A DNA stretch of 64,000 nucleotides from Malacoraja senta (Eukaryota): contig CM075989.1 in NCBI GenBank assembly GCA_038087875.1, positions 13,890,001 through 13,954,000 of the forward strand, written 5' to 3'. A program made the position numbers and the translations under genes. Positions 1-48,789 of the stretch are shown here, one piece after another. Position 1 is the first letter of the stretch, and each line of letters begins with the position of its first letter. The notes beneath the pieces are model-generated. The model was not told the DNA's origin. It saw nothing but the letters and a program-made list of their open reading frames with translations, and did no database searches.

Positions 1-1765
1 ACCCAACACCACTTCCCGACTAACCTGGATTTCACTCAGTTCCTCCATCTCCTTTGACCCGCGGCCCCCTGCTATTTCCGGCAGATTATTTATGTCTTCC
101 TTAGTAAAGACGGAACCAAAGTAGTTATTCAATTGGTCCGCCATATCCTTGTTCCCCATGATCAATTCACCTGTTTCTGACTGCAAGGGACCTACATTTG
201 TTTTAACTAATCTCTTTCTCTTCACATATCTATAAAAACATTTGCAGTCAGTTTTTATGTTCCCTGCCAGTTTCCCTTCATAATCTATTTTCCCTTTCCT
301 AATTAAGCCCTTTGTCCTCCTCTGCTTGTCTCTGAATTTCTCCCAGTCCTCTGGTATGCTGCTTTTTCTGGCTAATTTGTACGCATCATCTTTTGCTTTG
401 ATACTATCCCTGATTTCCCTTGGTATCCACGGATGCACTACCTTCCCTGATTTATTCTTTTGCCAAACTGGGATGAACAATTTTTGTAGTTCATCCATGC
501 AGTCTTTAAATGCCTTCCATTGCATATCCACCGTCAACCCTTTTAGAACTAATTGCCAGTCAATCTTGGCCAATTCACGTCTCATACCCTCAAAGTTACC
601 TTTCTTTAAGTTCAGAACCGTTGTTTCTGAATTAACAATGTCACTCTCCATCCTAATGAAGAACTCAACCATATTATGGTCACTCTTGCCCAAGGGGGCA
701 TGCACAACAAGACTGCTAACTAACCCTTCCTCATTACTCAATACCCAGTCTAGAATAGCCTGCTCTCTCGTTGGTTCCTCTACATGTTGGTTTAGATAAC
801 TATCCCGCATACATTCCAAGAAATCCTCTTCCTCAGCACCCCTGCCAATTTGATTCACCCAATCTATATGTAGATTGATGTCACCCATTATAACTGTTTT
901 GCCTTTGTTGCACGCATTTCTAATTTCCTGTTTGATGCCATCCCCAACTTCACTACTACTGCTAGGTGGCCTGTACACAACACCCACCAGCGTTTTCTGC
1001 CCCTTAGTGTTTCGCAGCTCTACCCATACCGATTCCACATCCTCCAAGCTAATGTCCTTCCTTTCCACTGCGTTAATCTCCTCTCTAACCAGCAACGCTA
1101 CCCCACCTCCTTTTCCTTTCTCTCTATCCCTCCTGAATATTGAATATCCCTGGAAGTTCAGCTCCCAGCCTTGGTCACCCTGGAGCCATGTCTCCGTGAT
1201 CCCAACTATATCATAATCATTAATTGCTATCTGCACGTTCAACTCATCCACCTTATTACGAATGCTCCTTGCATTGAGACACAAAGCCTTCAGGCTTTTT
1301 TTTACAATGCTCTTACCCCTTATACAATTATGTTGAAAAGTGGCTCTTTTTGATTTTTGCCCTGGATTTGTCTGCCTGCCACTTTTACTTTTCACCTTGC
1401 TACCTATTGCTTCTGCCCGCATTTTACACCCCTCTGTTTCTCTGCTCACCCATTTAAGAACCCCACCACCTCTTATTCTCTGTTTATTATTGTTTTCTTC
1501 TTTCCCCCCTACATGTTGGGTCTGAGTGCTTTCCTTCTCTGCCTCCTGCCTCACACACTGTCTAATAGCATTCTCTATTTGAGTCCCTCCCCCCAACCAT
1601 TCTAGTTTAAAGTCTCCACAGTAGCCTTTGCAGATCTCCCCACCAGGATATCGGTCCCCCTCAGGTTCAAGTGCAGCCCATCCTTTTTGTACAGGTCGAA
1701 CCTTCCACAAAAGAGGTCCCAATGATCCAGAAATTTGAATCCCTGCCTTCTGCACCAGTCCTCCC
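1..1765 (-). mobile_element. CR1-clade LINE: C-terminal end of ORF1 (SGNH esterase-like) plus uninterrupted N-terminal part of ORF2 (APE endonuclease and linker), running off the window edge; lies in SHC4 intron 1
   Basis: Manual translation of the minus strand shows no stop from 1611 to 1. It includes LKALCLNARSIRNK, GITETWL, GYSIFRRDR..GGGVALL, VYRPP, MGDIN, PTREQAILDWV and SDHNMVEF. ORF1 end WCRRQGFKFLDHW..DGLHLN..LN* stops at 1602-1604. Confidence 0.93.
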
Positions 1766-2030
1766 AAGGGTTTGACCATCTTACATTTAACATCCCAAAG
1801 TGCAGCACCTCACACTTATTTGAATTAAACACCATCTGCCATTGCTCTGCACATATTTCCAACTGGTCTATATCCACCTGTATTCTTTGACAACCTTCCT
1901 CACTATCTACAACTCTGCCAATTCTTATGTCATCTGCAAGCTTACTAATCAGCCCACCAACATTGTTTTCCTAATACACATCACGCCAAAGAGGTCCCAG
2001 CACCAATTCCTGAGGAACAGGACTGGTCAC
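1766..2030 (-). mobile_element. Older CR1 RT C-terminal fragment
   Basis: Translates to LEICAEQWQMVFNSNKCEVLHFG, a typical CR1 ORF2 C-terminal motif. Confidence 0.7.
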
Positions 2031-3222: not shown

Positions 3223-3413
3223 TATGTATATTGTGTTTACTGACGGGTTATATTGTTGCAAGTAAGAATATTCGGTATCGGTATTCGAACACCGTTATCG
3301 ATACATATGACAATCGAAGACAAATTCTTGATTGAAAAAAATAAAAACAATTAATACATCTTAATTAAAAGTTAACAATTAGTGTTAAAGTTAGAAATAA
3401 AACGGCGACTTAC

Positions 3414-3989
3414 TCTCACAGTGTAAAGTGTGCCAGAGTTGAGATCATCATCCCGTGTTTGCACCGGTGCCTTGACCGGCCGCTCTGCCGGATGGACGCT
3501 GCTGACCCACTCGCCGCTGGCCGGCTGCATCGTACCCGCGGTCACCTTCAGCGGCTCGGGCTGCGAGGGTGCAGAAAGGCAGCGGGTTAGATCAAGCGCC
3601 GAGGGAGAGGAGAGACCCCGAGTCCGGAGAGAGCTGGTCTCTTTCCTCCTCGGCGTTTCTCTGGTGCCCCGCGGGAAACTCTTGAGACCAAGTAGCCCGG
3701 CCGCCGAGTGGGACAGTTTTAGGTGAGCCATTTTGGGAAGAAAGGTAGACAGACCGGTTGCAATGTCCTCCGCTTCGGATGGAAGCCCATCAGCTGATGA
3801 ACCGGGCGCCAGCGAAGAGGACGGGCTCTTGCCCCTGAGGACGGCATTGGTCGAAGGTTCCTCCAAGGATGACAACGAATCGTTCCTAAAGCGGCTGTAC
3901 TTCGCTCTGTGAAGCATCCCCGGCTGTTGAAAGAGTCTCCCTACATGTGATGGGTGCCCAGCGAGGCGACAGCGAATGCGTTCTCTCAT
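3414..3989 (-). CDS. SHC4: SHC adaptor protein 4 (ShcD/RaLP), first coding exon (CH2 region to start of PTB domain), 192 codons, phase-0 donor
   Basis: MRER...PGMLHRAKYSRFRNDSLSSLEE...PKMAHLKL...LLGLKSF...TRETPR...LYTVR resembles human SHC4 exon 1 (MRER..PGMLHRAKYSRFRNESITSLDE...YCVR). GTAAGT donor at 3413-3408, in-frame TAG two codons upstream of the ATG, and syntenic with SECISBP2L. Confidence 0.93.
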
Positions 3990-4780
3990 AGCCTACCCGC
4001 TGCGGCAACAACTCCTCCACAACCCTCCCTGTCCACCGGCAAAGTTACCAATCGTTGGACCTGGCCTGAACTGGAGATGGTTTCGGCGGTGGGTCTATAA
4101 TATCCTGCTTCTAATGTCCACACAGTGAATACAAAGTGAAAAACTAACGAGTCCGAGGTTTCCTCTCATTCCCCGCGTTGACTCAAACCCAGCAAACTGC
4201 AACAGTGGACTTGCTTCAAACGCGCCGCCACTTGGAGAAAGCGACCGGTGTCTGTGCTCGAAGTCAGATGGGGATGGGGAGGTCTTCAGTCAGCTTGCAA
4301 ACCAGGGGAACTGGCGGCTCCATTGACGAGTAACCCTGCAATGGCCCGGCGTTTCAGAGCTGACGTTAGATGTCCACTCCAGCCCAGCTGTTGTAGTGAG
4401 TGTCCCTGCCCCCCCCCCTCTCTCTCTCTCTCCAGTTGCCGAGGGTGTGATCACACGCCAGTGGCGGCCGATTCCGCAAAGCTCTCTGCCAATGCTCCTT
4501 CCTCTTCAGTCTTCACCGTCCTGTCGAAGATCGCTTATTGCAAAACTCTACACGTTTCCTCAAACAATATCCCCCAACCATTCCTCTGCAGGCGGAGAGC
4601 GAGCGGGGGGGAGGGGGGGGGAAGGGGGGGGAGGTCGCCCCGAATTTTTATGAATGAACTTTTATGAATGAGTTTCCCCCCGAGTGCACACGCTAATAAA
4701 TCTGTGAATGAAGCGGAGCTCGCTGTAATTGACAGCCAATCCCTGGGGTAATCCCCTCGCAACCAATCAGCAAAGCAAGG
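3990..4780 (-). promoter_or_regulatory. SHC4 5'UTR / CpG-rich promoter region
   Basis: CpG-rich, repeat-free sequence immediately upstream of the ATG. CCAAT at 4736-4740 and 4763-4767, TGACGT at 4361-4366, and G-runs at 4605-4634. The TSS cannot be determined. Confidence 0.6.
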
Positions 4781-38943: not shown

Positions 38944-41900
38944 TAAGAAGGAACTGCAGATGTTGGTTTAAACCGAAGGTAGACCCAAAATGCTGGAGTA
39001 ACTCAGCGGGACAGGCAGCATCTCTGGAGAGAAGGAATGGGTCACGTTTCGGGTCGAGACCCTTGTTCAGACTGGTTAGTATAAGGGAAACGAGAGATAT
39101 AGACGCTGATGTGGAGAGATAAAGAACAATGAATGAAAGATAAGCAAAAAAGTAACGATGATAGAGGAAACAGGCCATTGTTAGCTGTTCGTAGGGTGAA
39201 AATGAGAAGCTAGTACGACTTGGGCGAGGGAGAGATAGAGAGAAAGGGAATGCCGGGGCTACCTGAAGTGAGATAAATCAATATCCATACCACTGGGCTC
39301 TAAGCTGCCCAAGCGAAATATGAGATAGTGTTCCTCCAATTTGCGTTTAGCCTCACGCTGACAATGGAGGAGACCAAGTACACAAAAGTCTGTGTCGGAA
39401 TGGGAAGTTAGAATTAAAGTGTCCAACAACTGGGGGATCAGGTTGGTTCACGCGTGCTGAGTGAAGGTGTTCCGTGAAACGATTGCCCAGTCTGCGTTTT
39501 GGTCTCGCCGATGTATAAGAGGTTGGAGGAGGTGCAAGTGAATTTCTGCCTAACCTGAAAGGACTGTCGGGGTCCCTGGACAGATTCGAGGGAGGAGGTA
39601 TAGCGACAGTTGTTGTATCTTTTGCAGGGGAAGGTACCTGGGGATGGGGTCGTTTGGGTGGGAAGGGATGAGTTTTTAATAATAATAATCATAATAATAA
39701 TAATAATACATCTTTATTGTCATTGCACAGAGGTACAACGAGATTTGGAATGCAACTTCCATCCGATGTAATAACTTAAATAGCTAAAAATGTAGACACC
39801 CAGAGAAACAAGATTAAAAACCCAGTTAAAGCAGTATAAAGTGCAAATAGGTCTGTGCCGGGTCGACGTGCGACGTGACCATCTGAGGGAGACAGTTCAT
39901 GGGGGGGGGGGGGGGCACTCAGCAGGACCGGTTCAGAGCAGCTATATCTCTGGGGATGAAGCTGTTCCTAAGTCTGGAGGTGCGGGCGTAGAAGGCCTTG
40001 TAACGTCTGCCGGATGGTAGAAGTTCGAACAGACTATTGCAAGGGTGTGAGGAGTTTTTATGAATCCTGGTTAAAGATCCTGGTGAATACCTCAGCCAGC
40101 TGTACAGCAGTCCTTAAGTACCCTTCCTTGGACTCGGTCCGGGCCTGCAGCCTTGCATAGATTGATCCTACGCAGAGCGTACTGTACATCCTGTGTGCTC
40201 AATGTTAAGACCTGTCCCTCCGCCATGGCCGGGGTTATTCCACTCCTGGTGGTGTTGCCAGTTTCGAAGCGGGCAAAGAAGGTGTTTAGCTCGTTGGCCA
40301 GTGTGATATCACTGTGGGGGCAGGCAGGGCTGCTCTTGTAGTCAGTGATGTCCCTGGCACCCTGCCACATGCTTCTGGTGTCCGCGGTATTGAAGTTGTC
40401 TTCCACCCTTTGCCTGTGGATGTCTTTGGCCCTTTTAATACCTTTGTGCAGGTTTGACCTGGCAGCATTGTATGCTGAAGTGTCACCGGATTTAAAGGCA
40501 TTGTTGTGTGCCCTTAGCAGATTCTGTACCTCCTTGTTCATCCAGTTTCCGGTTTGGGAACATCTTTATTTCCTTGTCCACTGTGACAAACTCCACACAG
40601 CAGTTGATGTAGGAGAGCAGAGTGGATGTGTACTCCTCCAAGTCTACCTCTGTATCATAGGTTGCCTGTTGCGCAAACAGGTCCCAGTCGGTGCGATCAA
40701 AGCAGTCCTGGAGTTGTAGGGTGGTGTCCTCGGGCCATATTTTGACAGTCTTTATTGCAGGTTTGGTCTTGCGGATGAGGGGTTTGTATGCAGGCACTAG
40801 AAACAGCGAGAGGTGATCAGATTGTCCCAGGGATGGGCAGGGGAGAGCTCTGTATGCGTCCTTGATGTTGGTGTACACTTTATCCAGCGTGTTTGAGCCC
40901 CTGGTAGGGCACTGCACATGCTGGTGGAATTTGTGGAGTGCAGCTCGTAGGTCGACCTGATTAAAGTCCCCTGCAACAATGAAGGCACTGTCAGGGTGAG
41001 CATCCTGCTGCTTACTGATGGTCAAGTGCAGCTGTGCTAGCGCTAGGTTAGCATTAGCCTGTGGTGGAATGTATACGGCCATGATGATAACCACAGTAAA
41101 CTCCTGAGGCAGAGAAAACGGCCTACATTTAAGCAGTAGGTATTCCAGATCTGGGGAACAGTAGCTCTCTACTGCAGTGTGGTTGGTGCACCAGTCATTG
41201 TTGATATAGATACAGAACCCCCCACCCTTGCTCTTAGGGTCCTTTGTTCTATCAGCAGTGATGCAGCGCGCTGAGCCACGTCTCCGTGAAGATCAGCGCA
41301 CAGCAGTCTTTCAGGGATCGCTGGGTGTTGATCCAGGGCCTTACCTCACCCAGCTTGTTGGTGAGTGACTGGACATTTGCGAGAAAGACGCTTGGTAGGG
41401 ATGGTCTTTGTGGAGCCTTCCACAGCCTGGCCTGCACCCCCGCTAGCCTTCCACGTTTCTGCTTTCTCTCCCGGCGCTTGCTCCGTCTCCTACCCTCCGG
41501 AGTGGTGATCCAGGGGGCTGTTCTGCCTAGCTCCATCGGGATTTTGATGAGGTACTACAAGCCAGTTTCTCGCAGCCACGTCCGATGTTGAGCAGTTCCG
41601 TTCGGCTCCATGTGCGACCCGTCGGGATTTCGGTGCGGGTACTGGATTTTCCTGTACTGGTGGCGAGTTCTTTTCTGGGGTATTTAAGTACCTGGTTTTC
41701 ACAGCCGCGTTCGATACTGGGCTGCTCCGAATTAAATCGGTCTGGAGAGCGCAAAGCCGCTGCGTGTGGACGCGCAGCCCTCCGCAACCAGCGAGTTGCG
41801 GAGGGAACGGTCTCCGCGGAAGGCGGAAAGGGGTGGAGATGGGAAAATGTGGCTATCCGTGGGATCCTTGTTAGAGGTGGAAGGTAAGGACTAGGGGGAC

Positions 41901-47963: not shown

Positions 47964-48586
47964 TTATGAGCAGGTTTGGCTCTCCGATTCTGCAGGCTGA
48001 GAAACTTCGGTCTCTATGGTCGAATCTGTTTGCTCCACCATTTCATGTTCTTCTACATCACATTGCCCATTGCGATCTTCCTCTGTACTATCAGTATTTA
48101 TGCTAAGCTGCAATATTTCCAGTGTTTTTTGTGCTTCACATACCCAATCATCAATTCTACTGCTAAATGTTACCATGACGGCAACAGACTCCGGGATATC
48201 ATCTTCCTCCTCCTCCTCCTCCTCTTCATCATCATCCCCCTCCTCCTCCAGCATGTCTGGTACAAGAGTACTTGTGGTGCTAATCATGGAGGAATTAAGA
48301 ACATCCCTGCAGCTACCATCAAGTGATCCTGTCTCAGTGCTCTGTTGAGAGGCCCACTCAAACATATCATCTGCTTTTCCTTCTCCCTTGTCTGAACCAG
48401 TGAATTTTGGTGTCTGGGCCACAGAGGAGGTAGTGGTTATTCCTAAATTTGTTTTGTTAGTACTGCTTGTGACTGCTGGTAAAGTTATAGACTTCTTCAG
48501 AGCAGCAGTCACACTTGGTGTAGCTTTCTCCGTCTCGGGACATTCCGGAGCATCAGTGGCCTCTACCATATTTCGCCAGTTTGTTT
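47964..48586 (-). CDS. SECISBP2L: SECISBP2L last coding exon
   Basis: (E)TNWRNMVE...EWASQQSTETGSLDGSCRDVLNSS..STTSTLVP.MLEEE acidic tract..SRIDDWV, ending in TAA. AG acceptor at 48588-48587. Confidence 0.93.
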
Positions 48587-48789
48587 CTTAAAAACAAAAT
48601 GCATTACAAAATTACAGATCAACATTTTAGAAGAACAAAAAGTTAAAAATGTAAGACATACCCAATCATTGGGAAACAAAGAATTTTAGAATTAGATCTT
48701 CAGATTGTACAGCCTTGAAGTACATCGCAAATAACAGATAAAGAATGATTTCAACTATACACAAATTTCATGCAAATACACACCTCCAC

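What the first reader, a model, noticed from the sequence alone, without database searches (positions are those of the whole stretch)
1560..1625. In-phase U_UUA_AAC slippery heptamer joins CR1 ORF1 to ORF2 in the -1 frame
Seen: ORF1 ends ACT TTA AAC TAG (heptamer at 1611-1605, stop at 1604-1602). This is an X_XXY_YYZ site in correct phase. The -1 frame (TTT AAA CTA GAA TGG...) stays open without a stop through the APE endonuclease to position 1, and its first ATG after the heptamer is ~190 nt downstream (1422). A G-rich tract (GGTTGGGGGGAGGG) starts 6 nt after the heptamer, and its GTTGGG could pair with a downstream CCCAAC. Established: UUUAAAC is the coronavirus -1 frameshift heptamer, and LINE ORF2 is usually thought to be made by re-initiation. 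Inference: this CR1 family may make an ORF1-ORF2 fusion by programmed -1 frameshifting. Caveat: the linker may be a chimera of two CR1 subfamilies near 1450.
Basis: partly seen in the sequence, partly recalled or inferred. Interest (0 to 1): 0.7.

Follow-up and report, generated by a model that had tools for sequence, protein, structure and literature searches.

The report
Conserved -1 frameshift in CR1 retrotransposons
A very common vertebrate jumping gene (a CR1 LINE) most likely makes its copying enzyme when the ribosome slips back one base at a conserved slippery site at the end of its first gene, as retroviruses do, which offers a testable answer to how these elements express that enzyme.

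Summary
Confirmed. On the minus strand, the esterase-type ORF1 of a 5'-truncated CR1 ends ACT TTA AAC TAG, and the -1 frame is open into the endonuclease. The site is clade-wide. Of 93 ORF1 relatives with an intact end, 56 finish in residues codable as X_XXY_YYZ, against 6% background. The endings are xLN, QGN or SKN, with the preceding residue changing as U_UUA_AAC, G_GGA_AAC and A_AAA_AAC require. In fetched DNA, 8 of 8 esterase loci from one search and 2 of 6 intact junctions from another carry such a heptamer; the other 4 have ORF2 in frame behind UGA. In two esterase families the first in-frame AUG lies inside the endonuclease. Programmed -1 frameshifting is the best reading (about 0.85); it is inferred, not measured. 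The proposed stem is not supported, but a G6 run starts at +11 in three families. One ray family also has a UAAUG stop-start. Nine paper searches found no CR1 report; older primary papers were unavailable. This scan noted similar junctions before on other DNA (e1-7814081, e1-7350016).

The parts
1602..1781 (-). C-terminal ~60 codons of an SGNH-esterase ORF1 (DGLH motif, ends ...ETLN*); the copy is 5'-truncated here
   Evidence: 76% identity to P0033; alignment A1; the A1 profile's only PDB hit is the ORF1-encoded protein 4c1b, E 1e-35
1605..1611 (-). Slippery heptamer U_UUA_AAC in phase with ORF1 (last two codons, Leu-Asn)
   Evidence: conservation
1602..1604 (-). ORF1 stop codon UAG directly after the heptamer
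1589..1594 (-). G6 run starting 11 nt after the heptamer; candidate stimulator motif, role unproven
   Evidence: same start (+11) in L015, L077, L048; G5 at +12 in L007, G4 at +13 in L011, G5 at +7 in L064; no such run in L013 or L025
1294..1605 (-). -1-frame linker of about 104 codons, charged and poorly conserved, stop-free
   Evidence: 0 stops against 9 and 9 in the other frames; family variants 22 non-synonymous, 6 synonymous, 0 stops
1445..1455 (-). In-frame seam between two subfamily linkers; a sister form runs from here straight into the endonuclease
   Evidence: loose ends before 1451 in 12 (X1) and 45 (X5) contigs, read by eye as K-C-[V/A]-Y-F-N-A-R-S-I; the 3' part matches P0203 and P0232
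1420..1422 (-). First in-frame AUG, 61 codons into the linker; kept in close relatives; possible re-initiation site in this subfamily
   Evidence: P0202, P0203, P0232 and P0244 keep this Met
1515..1520 (-).
676..1293 (-). APE endonuclease domain of ORF2 (NARS motif at about 1275)
   Evidence: Pfam PF03372 E 8e-12
1..675 (-). Further ORF2, open to the window edge
   Evidence: 53% identity to P0002 over 1314-4
1785..2030 (-). Reverse-transcriptase fragment of another CR1 copy abutting the truncated 5' end (not part of the junction)
   Evidence: P0002 residues 691-775

Best explanation
This is the ORF1/ORF2 junction of an esterase-type CR1 LINE. Most ribosomes stop at the UAG and release ORF1p ending in Leu-Asn. 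A minority slip back one base with tRNA-Leu and tRNA-Asn on U_UUA_AAC, read CUA GAA UGG..., and make an ORF1p-linker-endonuclease-reverse transcriptase fusion (...ETLN-LEWLGGG...), setting a high ORF1p:ORF2p ratio as gag/gag-pol does. Shown: the anatomy, the -1 register, the open linker, conservation and type-switching of the heptamer across lineages, and the lack of an in-frame AUG before the endonuclease in some families. Inferred: that slippage occurs, at what rate, and that the fusion is the working enzyme. The stimulator is unknown. The adjacent stop codon and a G run at about +11 are the candidates; no conserved local fold was found.
For: (1) 56 of 93 ORF1 representatives with an intact esterase end finish in a tripeptide codable as X_XXY_YYZ, against 57 of 930 upstream tripeptides; 38 of 73 groups after collapsing at 70% identity. 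(2) Covariation: before LN, 1 of 29 groups has a residue whose codon cannot end in U; before GN, 8 of 9 do (Gln, whose CAG ends in G); Fisher p 1.6e-6 (groups are still related). KN follows Ser in 2 of 2. [quoted passage not shown] (3) DNA: 8 of 8 esterase loci have an in-phase canonical heptamer at the last or next-to-last codon pair (three families: U_UUA_AAC twice, U_UUU_UUA once), 7 of 8 with ORF2 in -1. L011 and L007 have G_GGA_AAC then UAG, and L011 is open in -1 into the endonuclease. Background is 4 in-phase heptamers in 2082 ORF1 codons. (4) The first in-frame Met lies after the NARS motif in L015/L077 (56 vs 42 in L015), L048 (51 vs 37) and non-esterase L064 (71 vs 32). (5) Database proteins read in the -1 frame show F-K-L at the junction in P0038, P0207, P0232 (Hypanus) and P0084 (Chrysemys). 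(6) LN, GN, KN and FFx endings are interleaved on the esterase tree.
Against: No measurement of slippage. No conserved downstream fold: z near 0 in the window, L015, L077, L048, L011, L025 and L064; only L013 has a hairpin (z -2.0). 37 of 93 ORF1 ends do not fit at the last codons: one clade uses an in-frame UGA (4 loci), and another clade of 8 has unexplained ends. A Hypanus family reads F-K-L-M at the junction, i.e. heptamer plus UAAUG stop-start (P0232, P0233, P0203). The window's subfamily keeps an AUG at 1422, and L011, L013 and L025 have a Met before the endonuclease. Linker variants show no synonymous bias (22:6). L038 is in +1 (one base shorter than its sister L048). Of 5 non-esterase loci in -1, 3 lack a canonical heptamer. 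The search profile A1 contained the terminal LN columns, a small bias towards LN.
Confidence: 0.85

Rival explanations
1. Termination-reinitiation: ribosomes stop at the ORF1 stop and restart ORF2, at an overlapping UAAUG (SART1-like), at a downstream AUG such as 1422 (L1-like), or at a non-AUG codon. The -1 register is a left-over of a stop-start overlap.
For: Established for SART1 and proposed for L1 (PMC5972666 passages; PMC3894237 parts 1-2). One Hypanus family has UAAUG at exactly this junction, and the AUG at 1422 is kept in close relatives. It may work beside frameshifting in such families.
Against: It does not explain why the seven bases before the stop switch between canonical heptamers. 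UAAUG is absent from the window, P0038, P0207, P0084, L007, L011 and the L015 and L048 families. In L015, L048 and L064 an AUG start would cut off the NARS strand of the endonuclease.
Confidence: 0.09
2. The terminal Leu-Asn is a protein motif of the esterase ORF1p, and the heptamer is a by-product of codon use.
For: LN is invariant at a fixed 26 residues from the DGLH motif in chondrichthyan and sauropsid ORF1s.
Against: L is exchanged for G or K together with the codon before it; tail lengths run from 24 to 39 residues with the ending kept; the DNA always shows the slippery codons; two non-esterase ORF1s also end in canonical heptamers with ORF2 in -1 (L025, L064).
Confidence: 0.03
3. The fusion is made at the RNA level (transcriptional slippage adding one base, or a short splice) and not by the ribosome.
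For: Copies with an in-frame ORF1-ORF2 reading exist (P0207); the junction holds short homopolymer runs; L038 and L048 differ by one base in the G/T run.
Against: The runs are only 3-6 bases long; the conserved pattern is the tRNA-phase X_XXY_YYZ; no indel was listed at 4% share among 13631 and 9239 laid contigs, although an RNA-level change would be copied back into the genome by retrotransposition.
Confidence: 0.03

Closest known systems
Vertebrate esterase-type CR1 LINEs (PMC13343379 section 15; esterase ORF1p structure PDB 4c1b; PMC3905857)
   Same: Esterase ORF1 followed by APE-RT ORF2; nearest named proteins are from Leucoraja erinacea (93%), Hypanus, Mobula and Narcine.
   Different: The papers checked do not mention frameshifting at the ORF1/ORF2 junction (0 occurrences of 'frameshift' in PMC13343379, PMC3905857, PMC4120745, PMC3708506).
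[quoted passage not shown]
   Same: Same heptamers, same phase, structural ORF first and enzyme ORF in -1.
   Different: No pseudoknot or hairpin found downstream and no Rfam hit; the host is a non-LTR element with no protease to cut the fusion.
Dictyostelium TRE5-A and TRE3-A (PMC5911963, figure legend seen)
   Same: APE-type LINEs stated to require a -1 frameshift for ORF2 translation.
   Different: Amoebal tRNA-targeting elements of another lineage; no heptamer or assay is given in the passages seen; primary papers not read.
SART1 UAAUG coupling and L1 re-initiation (PMC5972666; PMC3894237)
   Same: Bicistronic LINE RNA with low ORF2 output; UAAUG gives the same -1 register and occurs in one ray CR1 family.
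   Different: They give a separate ORF2p; most CR1 junctions seen here have no AUG at the stop.
Penelope-like elements with ORF1 separated by a frameshift and pseudoknot (PMC8557442, figure legend); Paramecium LINE groups 1-3 (PMC5405496)
   Same: Recoding proposed between ORF1 and the RT ORF of target-primed retroelements.
   Different: Other element classes; +1 frameshift or readthrough in Paramecium; CR1 not discussed in this respect.

Membership tests
Esterase-type CR1 LINE | SGNH esterase in ORF1 | tested here: met
   (weak Pfam GDSL, E 0.03)
Esterase-type CR1 LINE | APE endonuclease at the start of ORF2 | tested here: met
   PF03372 E 8e-12
Esterase-type CR1 LINE | RT domain placing it in the CR1 clade by phylogeny | tested here: inconclusive
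   The RT lies beyond the window edge; the closest full ORF2s (P0001, P0002, 53-56%) carry PF00078. No RT tree was built; the label CR1 rests on likeness and recall.
Esterase-type CR1 LINE | 3' stem-loop and short tandem-repeat tail | not testable with these tools
   The 3' end of this copy is outside the window and no genome is held; other copies in the window show such tails
Eukaryotic -1 programmed frameshift site | X_XXY_YYZ heptamer in phase with the upstream ORF | tested here: met
Eukaryotic -1 programmed frameshift site | Downstream ORF in -1, open from the heptamer | tested here: met
Eukaryotic -1 programmed frameshift site | Heptamer conserved beyond protein need | tested here: met
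Eukaryotic -1 programmed frameshift site | 3' stimulatory RNA structure 5-9 nt downstream | tested here: not met
   no significant or conserved local fold; pseudoknots were screened only by a simple stem list; a G run is conserved instead
Eukaryotic -1 programmed frameshift site | Measured frameshifting or a transframe peptide | not testable with these tools
   needs a reporter assay, ribosome profiling or mass spectrometry
SART1-type UAAUG stop-start coupling | AUG overlapping the ORF1 stop | tested here: not met
   The window reads UAG AAU; its ATG at 1600 is out of frame and variable. Met only in a Hypanus sister family.

The most novel reading that the evidence does not exclude
Across the esterase CR1 clade, from marine invertebrates to sharks, reptiles and birds, ORF2p is made only as a Gag-Pol-like ORF1p-ORF2p fusion that is built into the particle through ORF1p's own coiled coil, and the slip is stimulated not by an RNA fold but by the adjacent stop plus a G run at +11 read by a protein. 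Sister clades reach the same fusion by stop-codon readthrough.
Probability: 0.35. Interest if true: 0.85.

Novelty: new variant of a known kind. Interest (0 to 1): 0.72.

Why it matters
How LINEs translate ORF2 is described as an open question (PMC3894237), and the models in print are re-initiation or internal entry. CR1 is the dominant retrotransposon of most vertebrates (PMC13343379 abstract). A clade-wide -1 frameshift would mean its enzyme is an ORF1-ORF2 fusion, would correct ORF2 start annotations, would add a very large set of natural frameshift sites in vertebrate genomes, and points to a stimulator without obvious structure. A 100-nt reporter tests it.

Tried and rejected
No genome is held for this window, and no second junction copy lies in it. 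Locus searches that found nothing: window endonuclease in viral contigs; A1 in genome, viral and metagenome contigs; A2, A7 and the esterase DNA pattern in viral contigs; A4 and A5 in genome contigs; plasmids and phages. Alignments A2 and A3 were too diverse for the genome scan. Raw-read runs X21 (2 reads) and X22 (0) gave no test. The GTTGGG/CCCAAC stem was rejected as a stimulator; no Rfam match. Long-range pairing of the G run with the 3' UTR is inconclusive: the best partner lay there in L048, L038, L064 and (tied) L077, but mostly in a stretch that by eye already forms the 3' hairpin, and no shuffle control was run. Selection on the linker by synonymous bias: no signal. The DNA alignment used a wrong range of L011 and was discarded. 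L012 was a false match; L002 and L008 are degenerate; L001, L006 and L009 end before the junction. The PDB search of the endonuclease gave only weak hits to the L1 endonuclease and exonuclease III (E 0.22). In PMC1925062 and PMC4255032 'frameshift' means mutations. PMC7528939 (Kapitonov and Jurka 2003) and PMC1190309 (Kojima 2005) are not held.

Full report
What is in the window. On the minus strand an ORF ends ...GCT ACT GTG GAG ACT TTA AAC TAG, heptamer at 1611-1605 and stop at 1604-1602. Its last 60 codons are the end of an SGNH-esterase ORF1: 76% identical to P0033, with named relatives from Mobula and Narcine, and a profile of six such sequences hits only the ORF1 esterase structure 4c1b in the PDB. 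Upstream of about 1781 lies an RT fragment of another copy, so this copy is 5'-truncated and the mechanism concerns the family. The -1 frame is open from 1809 to the window edge and holds an APE endonuclease. The linker has 0 stops in 104 codons in that frame against 9 and 9 in the others; the first in-frame ATG is at 1422, 61 codons in. The nearest named protein is from Leucoraja erinacea at 93%, so the host is probably a skate or near relative (inference). A heptamer plus stop alone is not rare (8 matches to three such motifs in the window).

Within the family. Contigs of runs X1 and X5 were laid on 1200-1800 (13631 and 9239 contigs; summed word depth mostly 0.2-2.4 million); the two raw-read runs gave no test. 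Of 63 variant positions, 40 were shown; none lies in 1600-1617, and no indel was listed. With about 11% of positions varying, ten quiet positions are consistent but not significant. Loose ends before 1451 (12 and 45 contigs) read by eye as K-C-[V/A]-Y-F-N-A-R-S-I, a sister form that would enter the endonuclease directly in the same frame with no Met since the heptamer. The window's longer form is itself abundant (depth about 430,000-480,000 at 1450), and its 3' half matches the linker of P0203 and P0232. Two low-depth skips in X5 remove a net 147 and 141 bases, both multiples of three. Linker variants are 22 non-synonymous, 6 synonymous and 0 stops (2 and 2 stops in the other frames): the frame is kept, the sequence is not.

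Across the clade, proteins. A profile search of 1.84 billion representatives returned the best 150. 93 had the esterase motif 20-45 residues from their end; 57 (fragments, frameshifted copies, or motif missed) were dropped before counting. 56 of 93 end in a tripeptide codable as X_XXY_YYZ, against 57 of 930 tripeptides just upstream. Of 62 ends in Asn, 56 fit, against 219 of 1192 internal xxN; after collapsing at 70% identity, 38 of 73 groups fit. The endings are xLN (45), xGN (10) and SKN (2). Before LN only 1 of 45 residues has no codon ending in U; before GN 9 of 10 are Gln, which has none but has CAG (1 of 29 against 8 of 9 groups, p 1.6e-6, groups still related). Leu, Gly and Lys share no chemistry but give U_UUA_AAC, G_GGA_AAC and A_AAA_AAC, three of the four heptamers that PMC5009743 names as shiftiest on mammalian ribosomes (passage). 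Named carriers of ...LN include a snake, a lizard, a swallow and a turtle. A quick tree of the esterase core without the tail (96 rows; SH-aLRT only, midpoint root) interleaves LN, GN, KN and FFx endings. 37 of 93 do not fit at the last codons; 9 of these fit 1-3 codons earlier. The rest include a 12-row clade holding the in-frame-UGA loci and an 8-row clade that I cannot explain.

Across the clade, DNA. Loci were found by motifs that do not include the heptamer. An esterase pattern gave 11 metagenome loci. Six reach an intact ORF1 end: L011 (CAG GGA AAC TAG, -1 frame open into the endonuclease) and L007 (GCG GGA AAC TAG, contig ends) are slippery; L003, L004, L005 and L010 end in TGA followed by CAT, CAA, CAA and CTA, with ORF2 in the same frame where the contig reaches it. 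An ORF2 alignment gave 80 loci, read as host DNA inside prokaryotic assemblies; 41 include the endonuclease start and 8 an esterase ORF1. All 8 have an in-phase canonical heptamer: L015, L016, L042, L075, L077 (one family, one assembly; TTT TTA AAC TAG), L048 and L038 (one family; TAT TTA AAC TAG) and L013 (CGT TTT TTA GTG TAA). Seven are in -1; L038 is one base shorter than L048 just downstream and reads +1. Of 13 non-esterase loci with an upstream ORF, 5 are in -1 (L025 A_AAU_UUA UAG and L064 G_GGA_AAC canonical; L020, L030, L052 not), 5 in frame and 3 in +1. Background is 4 in-phase heptamers in 2082 ORF1 codons. With the window, that makes six esterase families with a heptamer at the ORF1 end. 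In L015/L077, L048 and L064 the first in-frame Met lies after the NARS motif, so an AUG start would truncate the endonuclease (that this strand is essential is recalled from L1).

Against. P0232, P0233 and P0203 read F-K-L-M-W-Q-G at the junction, which implies heptamer plus UAAUG in that Hypanus family; Pristiophorus P0205 and P0206 read the same linker from an AUG in another frame, which implies no in-frame AUG there (inference). The window's subfamily keeps the AUG at 1422. Re-initiation thus stays possible in some families. A G6 run starts at exactly +11 in the window, L015, L077 and L048 behind three different spacers, with shorter runs at +12, +13 and +7 in L007, L011 and L064, and none in L013 or L025. 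It is a candidate signal only; it could also reflect a Gly-Gly need in the linker.

Literature. Searches (ten in all; nine aimed at frameshifting or ORF2 translation, at CR1 esterase papers) listed no paper reporting a frameshift at the CR1 junction. Term look-ups found no 'frameshift' in PMC13343379, PMC3905857, PMC4120745 or PMC3708506, and no 'CR1' in the held first 300,000 of 449,034 characters of PMC5009743. PMC11835228 passages describe CR1's two ORFs without it. PMC3894237 (parts 1-2 of 3 read) calls ORF2 initiation an open question and lists stop-start, re-initiation and IRES. Precedents in other elements: TRE5-A and TRE3-A (legend), Penelope-like elements (legend), Paramecium LINEs (passages). 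Earlier notes of this scan describe similar junctions on other DNA; they are unchecked AI notes and no independent support.

Verdict. The mechanism is known from viruses and is asserted for two amoebal LINEs; its clade-wide use in CR1 appears undescribed in the papers searched. New variant of a known kind; interest 0.72.

Noticed in passing
L003 (stop at 2191, -), L004 (113, -), L005 (2185, -), L010 (266, -): Esterase ORF1s of a separate clade (probably fish L2-type; label inferred) end in TGA followed by CAT, CAA, CAA or CTA G with ORF2 in the same frame: candidate stop-codon readthrough. L003 has a strong downstream fold (z -3.8 over 120 nt); in L010 no Met precedes the endonuclease.
   Followed up: partly
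L027:1099-1115, L032:3117-3133, L033:2978-2994, L041:946-962: Four non-esterase CR1-like elements from two assemblies labelled Sedimenticola have ORF1 and ORF2 in frame across TAG GAY NNN TGT/TAT TTT, a shared context suggesting UAG readthrough; L039 has TGA CAA.
   Followed up: partly
L068:585-610, L036:1055-1075, L023:2530-2550: ORF2 in +1 relative to ORF1 (CCC TTT TAG G..., GAG TGA TG..., CAG TAA TG...): possible +1 recoding or single-copy indels.
   Followed up: no
L064:1628-1640 and about 4550-4572: The G-rich stretch after the heptamer is complementary over about 10-13 bases to a stretch at the 3' end of ORF2, 2.9 kb away (-26 kcal/mol, the best match in the element): possible long-range stimulator, single case.
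   Followed up: partly
P0232, P0233, P0203 (Hypanus family): Slippery heptamer and UAAUG stop-start coincide at one junction: a possible switch point between frameshifting and re-initiation.
   Followed up: partly
L013-L092: Near-complete animal CR1-like LINEs sit in many GTDB prokaryotic assemblies (206 confirmed stretches), i.e. host contamination; one assembly labelled Metamycoplasmataceae holds many copies.
   Followed up: no
window 40092-41292 (-): A second, different LINE endonuclease-type ORF2 fragment, broken into two frames.
   Followed up: no
window 3412-3992 (-) and 47964-48587 (+): Long Ser/Pro-rich and acidic open frames that look like host exons; the first ends at a GTAAGT donor-like site.
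   Followed up: no
P0113, P0126, P0141, P0148, P0155, P0156, P0174, P0176: A well-supported esterase ORF1 clade with variable tails and no slippery-compatible ending at the last codons; its ORF2 linkage is unknown.
   Followed up: no
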